UHGV virus genome: UHGV-1455077
Reading direction: 5' to 3' (one strand)
Source: a virus
Length of the DNA: 64,000 bases
The notes below the pieces were generated by a model, which worked only from the letters and a program-made list of their open reading frames with translations, did not search any database and was not told the DNA's origin. Both the position numbers and the translations under genes were made by a program. Position 1 is the first letter of the stretch. Each line of letters opens with the position of its first letter. Of the stretch, positions 51,300 through 51,845 are shown piece by piece.

Positions 51300-51324
51300 T
51301 GTCTGTATTTAATAAATACAGACA
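51300..51324. repeat. 25-bp perfect palindrome TGTCTGTATTTA-A-TAAATACAGACA
   Basis: Read directly; about 16 nt upstream of the start of minus gene 50883..51284. Core ATTTAATAAAT shared with the palindrome at 51821. Confidence 0.8.
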
Positions 51325-51343
51325 AACTACACAGATGAATAAT

Positions 51344-51808
51344 TTATGCTTTAAATCCAGCAACAAACCATTTAAAATTACTTGTGTTTGGATTAAGATA
51401 ATGAGAAAATATTGTTATTTGAGAAACTGATGTTGGAATGCCACCAATACCCATTTCAGTATCACCAATAGCACGACCAGAAGATTGTGAAACAAGAACT
51501 AAATAGTTTGTATTTAACATTGTAATATGTAAATTAACTGCTTTTGTTGAGTTTTCATCAATTGTATTTTGTCCACCCTGTTCTATCCAACCATCACTCC
51601 AAATTCTATACCAATCATCTCCATTGGAATATGTTTCAGTTATATATCTTCTTGATTCTAATGTTAATAAACGACTATCTAATTGTAATAAAGAAGAATT
51701 TATATTGGTGATATTTGTATTAATATTAACAATACTATTATTAATTTCTGATAATTTATCAATCAATTCATCAACACGAGAAATAGGTAATTTACTTGTA
51801 TCAACCAT
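51344..51808 (-). CDS. paralog A of the tandem pair
   Basis: MVDTSKLPISRVDELIDKL ... WYRIWSDGWIEQGG. Confidence 0.45.
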   Translation of the reverse strand: MVDTSKLPISRVDELIDKLSEINNSIVNINTNITNINSSLLQLDSRLLTLESRRYITETYSNGDDWYRIWSDGWIEQGGQNTIDENSTKAVNLHITMLNTNYLVLVSQSSGRAIGDTEMGIGGIPTSVSQITIFSHYLNPNTSNFKWFVAGFKA

Positions 51809-51820
51809 AATATAATCCTT

Positions 51821-51845
51821 TATGGATATTTAATAAATATCCATA
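51821..51845. repeat. 25-bp perfect palindrome TATGGATATTTA-A-TAAATATCCATA
   Basis: Read directly; about 13 nt upstream of the start of minus gene 51344..51808. Confidence 0.8.

What the first reader, a model, noticed from the sequence alone, without database searches (positions are those of the whole stretch)
51300..51845. Two 25-bp perfect palindromes with a shared core ATTTAATAAAT, each just upstream of one member of a tandem paralog pair
TGTCTGTATTTA-A-TAAATACAGACA (51300-51324) and TATGGATATTTA-A-TAAATATCCATA (51821-51845) are perfect palindromes with identical central 11 bp but different outer arms. Each lies 13-16 nt upstream of the start codon of one of the two paralogous minus-strand genes (MDTSKLPISRVDELI...WYRIWSDGWIEQGG). 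No U tract follows on either strand, so they are unlikely to be simple intrinsic terminators. They look like operator sites for a dimeric regulator with arm-specific recognition, RNase III-type processing hairpins, or recombination sites that mediated the duplication.
Basis: seen in the sequence. Interest (0 to 1): 0.6.

Follow-up and report, generated by a model that had tools for sequence, protein, structure and literature searches.

The report
Palindromic start cassette of tail-fibre genes
The two palindromes are real copies of a conserved hairpin-forming DNA cassette that sits directly in front of nearly every small tail-fibre gene in a family of ~290-kb human-gut jumbo phages, most likely a late-expression control signal that also marks where these host-recognition genes are swapped between genomes.

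Summary
Both palindromes are perfect 29-mers (51298-51326 and 51819-51847) of the form TTT-N5-TATTTA(T/A)TAAATA-N5'-AAA, and each ends directly against the Shine-Dalgarno sequence of a minus-strand fibre-like gene.

The same element occurs in 91 copies at 22 orthologous sites in 762 kb of related ~290-kb gut phage genomes. It always lies upstream of a small tail-fibre-type gene. There are at least 12 different arm sequences, and all are complementary (99.4% of cells paired, no G·U).

The invariant 13-nt core carries the clade's T4-like late promoter heptamer (RTAAATA). In about 90% of copies that heptamer lies on the strand facing away from the fibre gene. The central base flips T<->A recurrently, which indicates DNA-level template switching.

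The elements are not terminators, because there is no U tract on either strand. They are not operators with arm-specific recognition, because the arms vary freely.

Best reading (confidence about 0.38): a portable palindromic late promoter and leader cassette, related to the T4 late-promoter-in-hairpin design, that also serves as a junction for cassette shuffling. The promoter activity, the transcript start and any RNA-level role are inferred, not shown. I rate it a new variant of a known kind, with moderate to high interest.

The parts
51298..51326 (-). Palindrome P1. Coding-strand reading: TTTGTCTG-TATTTATTAAATA-CAGACAAA. 14-nt arms, centre T on the coding strand.
   Evidence: RNA hairpin alone is -12.8 kcal/mol. 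Identical element in related genomes.
51819..51847 (-). Palindrome P2. Coding-strand reading: TTTATGGA-TATTTATTAAATA-TCCATAAA.
   Evidence: RNA hairpin alone is -11.0 kcal/mol. Orthologs L080, L244 and L245 carry the same palindrome with centre A.
51306..51318 (.). Invariant 13-nt core of P1. The + strand reads TATTTAATAAATA, which contains ATAAATA. The coding strand reads TTAAATA.
51827..51839 (.). Invariant 13-nt core of P2.
51294..51299 (-). Shine-Dalgarno sequence AAGGGG of the 133-aa gene. Its first two A residues are the last two bases of the palindrome.
   Evidence: Read from the sequence. AAAGG follows the palindrome in all copies.
51816..51820 (-). Shine-Dalgarno sequence AAGGA of the 154-aa gene, overlapping the base of P2.
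50883..51284 (-). Small tail-fibre-like gene, 133 aa (MDTSKLPISRVDELI...WYRIWSDGWIEQGG).
   Evidence: Gp53-like_C, E=0.0013; 154 homologs, all from ~290-kb phage contigs.
51344..51808 (-). Paralogous small tail-fibre-like gene, 154 aa.
51868..52528 (-). Two upstream genes of the same minus-strand late operon (103 aa at 51868-52179, 113 aa at 52187-52528). They are conserved next to the fibre genes in related genomes.
52550..52556 (-). Canonical late-promoter heptamer ATAAATA (+N4+CATA), 21 nt before the ATG of the first operon gene. Transcripts from here would read through P2 and P1 and would contain both hairpins.
   Evidence: Clade consensus.
50831..50848 (-). Candidate intrinsic terminator of the operon (stem followed by ATTTTTT), inside the 3' end of the convergent + strand gene.
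   Evidence: consensus scan only.

Best explanation
Each palindrome is one copy of a portable 5' expression cassette that heads the small tail-fibre genes of this jumbo-phage clade.

The apex of the cassette is the clade's T4-type late-promoter -10 hexamer, TAAATA, present on both strands and sharing the centre. The conserved outer AAA lies where canonical late promoters of the clade have their downstream TATA-like initiation box. The Shine-Dalgarno sequence follows immediately.

I propose that the cassette is a compact late promoter and leader. In the commoner T-centre state the fully canonical heptamer points away from the fibre gene, and a weaker TTAAATA version points towards it. Transcripts started inside the cassette would lack the 5' arm. 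Transcripts that read through from upstream, as in this window's four-gene late operon, would fold into a 13-bp hairpin that abuts the Shine-Dalgarno sequence. This is a variant of the T4 late-promoter-in-hairpin design of genes e, soc, 49 and I-TevI, and it is closest in geometry to the seg43(25) hairpin.

The arms are probably kept perfectly complementary, and the centre is flipped, by replication template switching. The conserved cassette plus the conserved N-terminal coding stretch acts as the homology patch through which fibre genes are gained, lost and exchanged.

Shown here: the structure, the conservation pattern, the gene association, the motif identity, the autonomous units and the centre flips. 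Inferred: promoter activity, transcript start sites, RNA folding in vivo and any effect on translation.
For: 1. Family-wide element. There are 91 copies at 22 orthologous sites in 762 kb of related genomes. Every occurrence of the 13-nt core but two is embedded in an 8-9 bp longer perfect palindrome, directly upstream of AAAGG plus the ATG of a small fibre-type gene (Collar and Gp53-like_C domains).

2. Pairing is conserved while the arm sequence varies. On 12 distinct hairpins 99.4% of cells are paired and 6 of 13 pairs change on both sides. The covariation score is 0.455 against 0.103 for shuffles (0 of 500 shuffles reach it), and slid controls give 0.10 or less. Of 17 matches to the arm-free pattern in 596 Gb of bacterial genomes, 15 are unrelated and none of those is palindromic. 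The other two are palindromic and precede a fibre-family gene, so I read them as contigs of this phage clade.

3. The clade's late promoter is RTAAATA-N4-YANA, 20-36 nt before the ATG, derived here from 36-48 non-hairpin sites. The same motif and a gp55-like sigma factor are reported for the relatives CBB and GAP32 (PMC5259590). The core contains exactly this heptamer. In a position-weight matrix the palindrome scores 3-11 bits in the antisense direction with centre T and 6-13.6 bits in the sense direction with centre A. The canonical median is 12.5 bits and the background 99.9th percentile is 4.8 bits.

4. Many units are autonomous. They are lone genes flanked by opposite-strand genes, end in a bidirectional terminator, or lie directly after a strong terminator. 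The palindrome is the only conserved candidate promoter on the fibre side.

5. A stemless family member uses the same core with centre A at the canonical 30-nt distance from its ATG. An unrelated phage (L006) has a 41-bp palindrome with the same core, a sense-strand ATAAATA and the Shine-Dalgarno sequence inside the 3' arm. That is the textbook T4 gene e design (PMC3014915 and PMC2988022).

6. The window itself holds canonical examples of a late promoter inside a hairpin with the Shine-Dalgarno sequence in the 3' arm, at 28790-28827 and 22027-22065.

7. DNA-level hairpin activity. The centre base varies in 3 of 13 ortholog clusters, against 0 of 366 arm columns and about 2% of flank columns, and it is only ever T or A. 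This matches the arm homogenisation and spacer inversion expected from template switching (PMC8604942 and PMC8794818).

8. Cassette turnover at and near this locus.
Against: On the coding strand about 90% of copies read TTAAATA. T at that position is essentially absent from canonical-geometry late promoters (A 38, G 7, T 3, and none of the T cases has the downstream box). The T bias looks selected, because the centre flips easily yet stays T. A rightward promoter would therefore be non-canonical.

The hexamer lies only 6 nt from the Shine-Dalgarno sequence, against 11-17 nt for canonical promoters. A transcript started there would carry the Shine-Dalgarno sequence within 0-3 nt of its 5' end.

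The stem does not sequester the Shine-Dalgarno core or the AUG, unlike the T4 paradigm.

In this window the two palindromes are internal to an operon that already has a canonical late promoter, so no promoter is needed here.

Complementarity of the N5 positions is not required by a pure promoter model. It has to be attributed to template switching or to an RNA or DNA hairpin function.

No transcript data exist.
Confidence: 0.38

Rival explanations
1. RNA-level translational operator or stability hairpin. The whole palindrome is transcribed in every unit as part of the 5' UTR or intercistronic region. It folds into a 13-bp stem with an AUU triloop directly 5' of the Shine-Dalgarno sequence. A trans factor that recognises the conserved apical part binds it, or it simply protects or insulates the cistron, to set the translation or half-life of all small fibre mRNAs together. 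The T4 gp43 operator hairpin next to its Shine-Dalgarno sequence and 5' stem-loop stabilisers are comparable. The similarity to the late promoter would be incidental.
For: The hairpin abuts the Shine-Dalgarno sequence in all copies. Pairing is conserved with a variable mid-stem and an invariant apex and base. The element is present at intercistronic positions where no promoter is needed, as in this window. The strand-specific bias of the loop base (82 T: 9 A on the coding strand) fits a strand-specific RNA function. Folding is significantly more stable than shuffles (z = -2.9 to -3.7 on the coding strand). A comparable hairpin that abuts the ribosome-binding site without sequestering it is described for seg43(25) of Aeromonas phage 25 (PMC2988022).
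Against: There is no G·U pair in 156 cells, which is unusual for an RNA stem under selection, although template switching could explain it. Lone units need a promoter upstream of the hairpin, and no conserved sense-strand promoter exists there. In several units a strong terminator ends within 0-8 nt of the hairpin. The core is identical to the late -10 motif. The stems are only moderately stable (-8.4 to -12.9 kcal/mol). No Rfam family matches.
Confidence: 0.27
2. Duplex-DNA operator for a dimeric phage regulator that recognises the 6-1-6 core TATTTA-W-TAAATA and switches all small fibre genes on or off together. The arm complementarity would be a by-product of template-switch homogenisation.
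For: The 13-bp core is an invariant, perfectly symmetric site in 91 copies. It overlaps a late-promoter-like sequence, which is a usual place for a repressor. Template switching can homogenise the arms of inverted repeats without selection (PMC8604942).
Against: Arm-specific recognition is excluded, because at least 12 arm variants occur and the same arms precede different genes. The palindrome boundaries and length are tightly conserved beyond the core. The centre base has a strong strand bias relative to the gene, which a symmetric dimer site does not predict. No DNA-binding protein was identified next to the loci.
Confidence: 0.1
3. Mainly a recombination or shuffling element. The palindrome extrudes as a hairpin or cruciform and is cut or stalls replication. 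The phage encodes an SbcC/Rad50-like nuclease. The break would stimulate exchange of fibre cassettes between paralogs and co-infecting genomes, with no role in expression.
For: Cassettes are variably present: one gene versus two at this locus, and an extra hairpin plus 159-aa gene inserted at the equivalent of window position 54107/54120. Homology breakpoints lie at the 5' edge of the hairpin and within the conserved N-terminal codons. The centre base is a mutation hotspot. An SbcC-like gene lies at 2603-4723. PeSL cassettes of T4-type phages set a precedent (PMC2839356 and PMC4122927).
Against: This does not explain the fixed contact with the Shine-Dalgarno sequence, the orientation bias of the centre, the invariant late-promoter-like core, or why only fibre genes carry the element. 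A 29-bp palindrome is short for SbcCD-type cleavage in vivo (my own knowledge). Ordinary homologous recombination in the conserved sequence would give the same mosaics.
Confidence: 0.1
4. RNase III-type processing site that separates the fibre cistrons in polycistronic late mRNA.
For: The stem-loops are intercistronic, perfect and lack a terminator tail. Phages T7 and SP82 use conserved hairpins in this way (my own knowledge).
Against: The stem is only 13-14 bp, against about 20 bp for typical substrates. The element is also present in lone monocistronic units, where nothing needs to be separated. The host and its RNases are unknown.
Confidence: 0.05

Closest known systems
T4-type late promoter embedded in a translation-control hairpin (genes e, soc, 49, I-TevI/II/III, segB, mobE; and the atypical seg43(25) hairpin of Aeromonas phage 25)
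   Same: The element is a stem-loop directly at the translation initiation region of a late gene that also lies on longer transcripts. A T4-like late -10 motif lies inside the hairpin-coding DNA. As in seg43(25), the ribosome-binding site lies immediately 3' of the stem base rather than inside it (PMC3014915, PMC2988022). An unrelated phage (L006) carries the same core in the full T4 design.
   Different: The element is a perfect palindrome with the -10 motif at the apex on both strands. The canonical heptamer usually faces away from the gene. The Shine-Dalgarno core and the AUG are not sequestered. The element is repeated in front of a whole multi-copy gene family. No transcript mapping exists.
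PeSL (promoter-early stem-loop) mobile regulatory cassettes of T4-type phages
   Same: Both are short composite regulatory motifs repeated many times per genome. Both lie next to variable genes and at indel or replacement boundaries, and plausibly provide homology for modular shuffling (PMC2839356, PMC4122927).
   Different: PeSLs combine a sigma-70-like early promoter with a GC-rich terminator stem-loop and flank early ORFans. This element has no sigma-70 promoter, no U tract and an AT-only conserved apex that resembles a late promoter, and it heads structural (fibre) genes.
Inverted repeats created and maintained by replication template switching (quasipalindrome correction, spacer inversion)
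   Same: The arms are perfectly complementary with no wobble pairs. The only recurrent polymorphism is inversion of the 1-nt spacer (T<->A) (PMC8604942, PMC8794818).
   Different: Template switching is a mutational mechanism, not a function. It does not explain the invariant core, the fixed length, the contact with the Shine-Dalgarno sequence or the gene-family specificity.
Hairpin promoters of phage N4 virion RNA polymerase
   Same: Both are short DNA hairpins with a 3-nt loop, a conserved apex and a structure requirement, located just upstream of the transcribed gene (my own knowledge).
   Different: N4 stems are 5-7 bp and are recognised by a giant virion RNA polymerase. No such polymerase was seen in this window, and the clade's relatives use host RNA polymerase with a gp55-like sigma factor. 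The resemblance is in form only.
T4 gp43 translational operator
   Same: A hairpin with a recognised loop lies directly 5' of, and functionally coupled to, the Shine-Dalgarno sequence (my own knowledge).
   Different: The gp43 operator is a single-copy autoregulatory site with a 5-bp stem and an 8-nt loop. Here there are about a dozen copies per genome, a 13-bp stem and a triloop, and no binding protein is known.

Membership tests
T4-type late-promoter-in-hairpin translational control | Stem-loop at the translation initiation region of a late gene | tested here: met
   A 13-14 bp stem ends at the AA of AAGG, 10-13 nt before the ATG. The genes are structural (fibre-type) and sit in a late operon.
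T4-type late-promoter-in-hairpin translational control | Shine-Dalgarno sequence and/or AUG sequestered in the stem | tested here: not met
   Only the two A residues preceding GG are paired. The G·G flanks stop the stem in most copies. The feature is met only in the unrelated phage L006.
T4-type late-promoter-in-hairpin translational control | Sense-strand late promoter inside the 5' arm or loop, so that late transcripts lack the 5' arm | tested here: inconclusive
   The sense strand has TTAAATA at the apex in 82 of 91 copies, which is non-canonical because the clade uses RTAAATA. Nine copies have ATAAATA. The canonical heptamer is on the antisense strand.
T4-type late-promoter-in-hairpin translational control | The gene is also present on longer read-through transcripts | tested here: met
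   A canonical late promoter at 52550-52556 (-) lies upstream of the four-gene operon, and no terminator precedes P2 or P1. This rests on sequence inference only.
T4-type late-promoter-in-hairpin translational control | Mapped late 5' ends within the hairpin and differential translation | not testable with these tools
   No transcriptome or reporter data are available.
PeSL mobile regulatory cassette | Sigma-70-like early promoter in the motif | tested here: not met
   No -35/-10 pair lies in or next to the palindrome. Sigma-70-like sites are not enriched in the region (86 found, 90.5 expected).
PeSL mobile regulatory cassette | Stem-loop that acts as a terminator (GC-rich stem, U tract) | tested here: not met
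   The element is TTT-stem-AAA on both strands, with 1-3 G-C pairs and no U tail.
PeSL mobile regulatory cassette | Repeated intergenic motif at the boundaries of variable genes and indels | tested here: met
Intrinsic terminator | Stable stem followed by a U tract | tested here: not met
   The terminator scan does not call the palindromes, and the tail is AAAGG (sense) or AAAC (antisense). Other hairpins in the window do have A4-stem-T4 form.
Operator of a dimeric regulator with arm-specific recognition | Arm sequence specific to the regulated gene | tested here: not met
   The same arms precede different genes, homologous genes carry different arms, and at least 12 arm variants occur.
Operator of a dimeric regulator with arm-specific recognition | A cognate DNA-binding protein | not testable with these tools
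   No HTH or other DNA-binding domain was found in the neighbouring ORFs. The rest of the genome was not examined.
RNase III processing site | About two helical turns of dsRNA and paired staggered cleavage | tested here: not met
   The stem is 13-14 bp. Cleavage cannot be tested.
Rfam RNA families | Match to a curated covariance model | tested here: not met
   Only chance-level hits (E of 0.78 or more, far below gathering scores) in 50500-52700.
DGR target-site hairpin (IMH-associated cruciform) | Hairpin just downstream of a variable repeat at the 3' end of a target gene | tested here: not met
   The element is positioned relative to the downstream gene's Shine-Dalgarno sequence and ATG, and it occurs in divergent regions with no upstream gene end. 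The clade does carry a DGR elsewhere.
N4-type hairpin promoter | Recognition by a virion-type single-subunit RNA polymerase | not tested
   No RNA polymerase domain was found in the 30 window ORFs scanned against Pfam. Only 64 kb of about 290 kb was examined.

The most novel reading that the evidence does not exclude
The palindrome is a direction-switchable late promoter. Replication template switching inverts its single central base pair, and this moves the only fully canonical RTAAATA heptamer from one strand to the other. Position-weight scores swap (for example P2: sense 6.9 and antisense 10.9 bits with centre T, sense 13.5 and antisense 4.3 bits with centre A). This would give heritable, reversible, site-by-site variation in which of the roughly dozen small tail-fibre genes are strongly expressed. 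It would be a one-base phase-variation mechanism for phage host range that needs no recombinase.
Probability: 0.1. Interest if true: 0.85.

Novelty: new variant of a known kind. Interest (0 to 1): 0.6.

Why it matters
Tail-fibre genes decide which bacteria a phage can infect. Large gut phages of this type carry a dozen or more of them, and it is not known how they are regulated or exchanged.

This element is a clade-wide signature placed at the start of each small fibre gene. It combines the T4-like late-promoter motif, a structure-conserved hairpin and the ribosome-binding site in 31 nt, and it sits at the boundaries where fibre cassettes come and go.

If it is a promoter and leader cassette, it extends the T4 late-promoter-in-hairpin logic to a gene-family-wide portable module in an uncultured, widespread human-gut jumbo phage. 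It would also give a simple sequence tag for finding receptor-binding genes in such genomes.

The recurrent flip of the central base is a natural example of template-switch spacer inversion at a regulatory site. Whether the flip changes expression can be tested directly.

Tried and rejected
- Intrinsic terminator: rejected. There is no U tract on either strand, whereas the window's true terminators have A4-stem-T4 form.
- Known RNA family: Rfam gave only chance-level hits.
- Known phage sequence: blastn of 50800-52300 against 50,697 phage records found nothing. tblastn of the 154-aa protein found one weak partial hit.
- The search for related loci with the single 154-aa protein confirmed no relative. 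The DNA pattern search was what opened up the family.
They were useful only as a control: outside the clade the core is almost never an extended palindrome.
- The single metagenome scan, with the gene-start pattern ATGNNNGATAYAAGTAAA, was too unspecific and returned only unrelated genes. It was wasted.
- Sigma-70-type promoter in front of the fibre genes: none is conserved.
- Canonical sense-strand late promoter upstream of the hairpin in lone units: none was found. The conserved TATTTAT[T/A] 30 nt upstream is the late promoter of the divergent neighbour read on the other strand. Its fixed spacing to the hairpin remains unexplained.
- Site-specific recombinase site: the only nearby integrase hit (52608-53234, E=0.003, below the Pfam cut-off) is not credible.
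- DGR target hairpin: the position is wrong.
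Full report
**1. What is in the window**

There are two perfect 29-bp palindromes with 14-nt arms and a 1-nt centre, at 51298-51326 and 51819-51847. Read on the coding (minus) strand they are:
- P1: TTTGTCTG-TATTTATTAAATA-CAGACAAA
- P2: TTTATGGA-TATTTATTAAATA-TCCATAAA

They share the outer TTT/AAA and a 13-nt core. The five bases in the middle of each arm differ at four positions, and each difference is compensated in the other arm.

Each palindrome runs straight into the ribosome-binding site of a minus-strand gene:
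- P1 is followed by AAAGGGGATAATTCAA-ATG, the 133-aa gene at 50883-51284.
- P2 is followed by AAAGGATTATATT-ATG, the 154-aa gene at 51344-51808.

The two proteins are paralogs (38% identity). Both have weak Gp53-like_C tail-fibre hits.

No perfect palindrome with 14-nt arms appeared in 60 dinucleotide-preserving simulations of the window, where 2 are observed. The 11-nt core alone is not enriched. No T or U run follows on either strand, and the terminator scan does not call them.

**2. Genomic setting**

The window has 25% G+C and is phage DNA. It encodes:
- a polyvalent ADP-ribosyltransferase protein and a baseplate hub/lysozyme
- virion structural proteins
- an SbcC/Rad50-like nuclease subunit
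- a split DNA polymerase fragment that is 42% identical to those of the RaK2/PBECO4/phAPEC6 jumbo phages

Homologs of the 133-aa protein come from contigs of 285-293 kb in many human-gut metagenomes.

The two fibre genes are the last two genes of a four-gene minus-strand operon (52528 down to 50883). Its first gene is preceded by a canonical late promoter (see section 5) at 52550-52556. In this window the palindromes are therefore intercistronic.

**3. The element is a clade-wide family**

I searched IMG/VR for TTT-N5-TATTTATTAAATA-N5-AAAGG, leaving the arms free. This returned 39 sites, mostly on four 200-280-kb contigs. In 36 of them the two N5 stretches are exact reverse complements.

As an unbiased check I collected every gene in the related loci that starts M-x(0-2)-D-x-S/A-K-I/L/V, regardless of what lies upstream. 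Of the 32 hits, all but three carry the palindrome. Two of the three are unrelated window ORFs that merely fit the pattern, and one is a true family member without a stem (section 6). The stems include 6-nt variable stretches and one outer pair changed from T-A to C-G.

In 388 kb of clade sequence, every occurrence of the 13-nt core lies inside an 8-9 bp longer perfect palindrome. The two exceptions are one stemless copy and one copy with a single mismatch.

In total there are 91 copies at 22 orthologous sites. One 282-kb contig carries at least 12.

All downstream genes are small and fibre-type: either the conserved DxSK(L/I) N-terminus with Gp53-like_C, or tail Collar domains.

Controls:
- In 596 Gb of bacterial genomes the same arm-free pattern matched 17 times. 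None of the 15 unrelated matches is palindromic. The other two are palindromic and precede a fibre-family gene, so I read them as contigs of this phage clade binned as "bacteria".
- Outside the clade, the core plus AAAGG is almost never an extended palindrome.

**4. Pairing is conserved and sequence is not, but the mechanism may be mutational**

I tested 12 distinct hairpins:
- 99.4% of cells pair.
- 6 of 13 pairs change on both sides and none changes on one side only.
- The covariation score is 0.455, against 0.103 in shuffles (0 of 500 reach it) and 0.10 or less when the partners are slid.

There is not one G·U pair. The apical 5 pairs, the loop region and the basal 3 pairs never vary.

I then compared 13 clusters of orthologous copies from near-identical strains. 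The fraction of variable columns was:
- arms: 0 of 366
- upstream flank: 11 of 1950
- downstream flank: 104 of 3250
- central base: 3 of 13 (binomial p of about 0.003 against the flank rate)

In one cluster the central base is the only difference in 429 nt across 11 genomes. With P2 included (T in this window, A in L080, L244 and L245), the centre has flipped at four or more sites. It is always T or A, never C or G.

This combination is what replication template switching between inverted-repeat arms produces: perfect Watson-Crick arms, no wobble pairs, and a spacer that inverts. Such switching homogenises the arms and inverts the spacer (PMC8604942, PMC8794818). The palindromes therefore do form hairpin intermediates in DNA, and the covariation cannot be read as proof of an RNA structure.

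Despite this easy flipping, the coding strand carries T in 82 of 91 copies. That implies selection on the orientation of the centre relative to the gene, and so a strand-specific function.

**5. The core is the clade's late-promoter motif**

I extracted the non-coding DNA upstream of 132 genes that lack the hairpin, from the window and related loci. The dominant positional motif is RTAAATA-N4-YANA, ending 20-36 nt before the ATG. The base before TAAATA is A in 38 cases, G in 7 and T in 3, and none of the T cases has the downstream box.

This matches the ATAAATA late motif and gp55-like sigma factor reported for the relatives CBB and GAP32 (PMC5259590).

The palindrome core contains this heptamer exactly, but on the strand opposite the fibre gene when the centre is T. 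The coding strand then reads TTAAATA. The conserved outer AAA falls where canonical promoters have their TATA-like box. The variable N5 corresponds to their unconserved N4 spacer.

Position-weight matrix scores:

| Sequence scored | Bits |
|---|---|
| Antisense direction, centre T | 3-11 |
| Sense direction, centre T | -0.6 to 7 |
| Sense direction, centre A | 6 to 13.6 |
| Canonical sites, lower quartile | 8.5 |
| Canonical sites, median | 12.5 |
| Background, 99.9th percentile | 4.8 |

**6. Why a promoter is needed in the cassette**

Many fibre units stand alone. In L379 the gene is the only + strand gene among minus-strand replication genes. It has 99 nt of upstream DNA and a bidirectional terminator after its stop codon.

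In other units a strong terminator ends 0-8 nt before the palindrome.

On the fibre side of these regions nothing is conserved except the palindrome. The recurrent TATTTAT(T/A) that starts 30 nt upstream of the hairpin is the canonical late promoter of the divergent neighbour, which is often a large fibre gene. It keeps that spacing in 8 of 12 contexts although the 22-nt spacers are unrelated. I cannot explain this.

One family member has no stem. It keeps the core with centre A at the canonical 30 nt from its ATG.

An unrelated 110-kb phage (L006) has a 41-bp perfect palindrome with the same core, a sense-strand ATAAATA and the Shine-Dalgarno sequence inside the 3' arm. This is exactly the T4 gene e / soc / 49 / I-TevI design. 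In that design, long transcripts fold and hide the ribosome-binding site, while late transcripts start inside the hairpin and are translated (PMC3014915, PMC2988022).

The window itself has canonical versions of the design at 28790-28827 and 22027-22065.

**7. Interpretation**

The best-supported reading is a portable palindromic late promoter and leader cassette for small fibre genes.

Weak points:
- The rightward heptamer is non-canonical in 90% of copies.
- It lies only 6 nt from the Shine-Dalgarno sequence.
- The stem does not cover the Shine-Dalgarno core.
- In this window no promoter is needed at P1 or P2.

The main rival is an RNA-level operator or stability hairpin next to the Shine-Dalgarno sequence. 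It fits the strand bias and the intercistronic copies. It lacks a promoter upstream of the hairpin in the lone units, and it treats the promoter motif as coincidence.

Other readings:
- A symmetric duplex operator is possible for the core only. Arm-specific recognition is excluded.
- A pure recombination role, or RNase III processing, explains little of the anatomy.
- The cassette clearly sits at junctions of gene gain, loss and exchange. Related genomes have one gene where the window has two. They also have an extra palindrome plus a 159-aa gene between the orthologs of 53289-54107 and 54120-55310.

**8. Novelty**

Nothing matched in Rfam or in deposited phage genomes. The jumbo-phage and T4 papers I read do not describe this element.

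It is closest to T4 late-promoter hairpins and to PeSL mobile regulatory cassettes. It fails defining features of both: the Shine-Dalgarno sequence is not sequestered, and there is neither a sigma-70 promoter nor a terminator. I classify it as a new variant of a known kind.

The most novel reading not excluded is that centre inversion toggles promoter direction and so varies fibre expression. I give this about 10% probability.

Noticed in passing
window 28790-28827 (upstream of 28830-30143, a virion structural protein): Near-perfect 38-nt hairpin, A4-stem-T4, with the canonical late promoter TATAAATA-TAAT-TATA in its 5' arm and the Shine-Dalgarno sequence TAAGGA in its 3' arm. This is a textbook T4 gene-e-type terminator, late promoter and RBS-occlusion cassette. 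Similar elements lie at about 22027-22065 (AATAAATA in the loop) and at 13611-13646 (a sigma-70-like promoter overlapping a hairpin that holds the Shine-Dalgarno sequence).
   Followed up: partly
window 54108-54134, and L034 5332-5878: Bidirectional terminator AAAAGAGGATATTTAATATCCTCTTTT between convergent genes. In related genomes (L011, L022, L034) an extra palindrome plus a 159-aa fibre-family gene is inserted at exactly this junction.
   Followed up: partly
related loci, about 30 nt upstream of the palindrome (e.g. L379 9931-9937): TATTTAT[T/A], which is the divergent neighbour's late promoter read on the other strand, starts exactly 30 nt before the palindrome in 8 of 12 contexts. The 22-nt spacers are unrelated in sequence, and two of the contexts have no divergent gene. 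This spacing constraint is unexplained.
   Followed up: partly
window 58330-59439 and 59457-60146; L369 19351-20405; L372 18597-20405: Two window proteins carry the Mtd_N domain (major tropism determinant). Related contigs encode a reverse transcriptase (RVT_1) next to an Mtd-like gene. The clade therefore appears to carry a diversity-generating retroelement acting on other fibre proteins.
   Followed up: no
window 2603-4723: An SbcC/Rad50-like subunit of a palindrome/hairpin-specific nuclease (phrog_77, E=5.5e-95). It could act on DNA hairpins such as these palindromes.
   Followed up: no
window 44710-49233 (-) and 22778-24175 (+): A 1507-aa polyvalent protein with ART-PolyVal and DUF5662 domains, and a second ART-PolyVal protein. 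The perfect 24-nt hairpin at 44686-44709 between the convergent genes looks like a bidirectional terminator.
   Followed up: no
window 50284-50886 (+) and 50883-51284 (-): A 200-aa DNA-polymerase fragment (phrog_11778, 42% identical to RaK2-group phages) overlaps the 3' end of the 133-aa fibre gene by 4 nt, in convergent orientation. The only terminator-like site for the fibre operon (50848-50831, -) lies inside the polymerase fragment's coding sequence.
   Followed up: no
L006 4778-4818 (IMGVR_UViG_3300037515_000188, 110 kb): An unrelated AT-rich phage has a 41-bp perfect palindrome with the same 13-nt core, a sense-strand ATAAATA and the Shine-Dalgarno sequence GGAGAT inside the 3' arm, 4 nt before a 150-aa gene. 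L097 has a 21-bp version between divergent genes. The design may be more widespread among phages with T4-like late transcription.
   Followed up: partly
L404 (GTDB record CASEYV010000001.1, 283,511 bp) and L400: Contigs that carry the palindrome followed by a fibre-family gene are filed in GTDB as an 'uncultured bacterium' bin and a 'Bacillota bacterium' MAG. From that signature I take them to be phage contigs of this clade. The Bacillota bin is at best a weak hint about the host.
   Followed up: no
window 42846-44111, 10007-11242, 25994-28270, 1102-2238: Auxiliary genes: a CCA-adding/poly(A) polymerase-family enzyme, an RNA ligase, a ClpB-like double AAA+ ATPase, and an IMP dehydrogenase/GMP reductase.
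   Followed up: no
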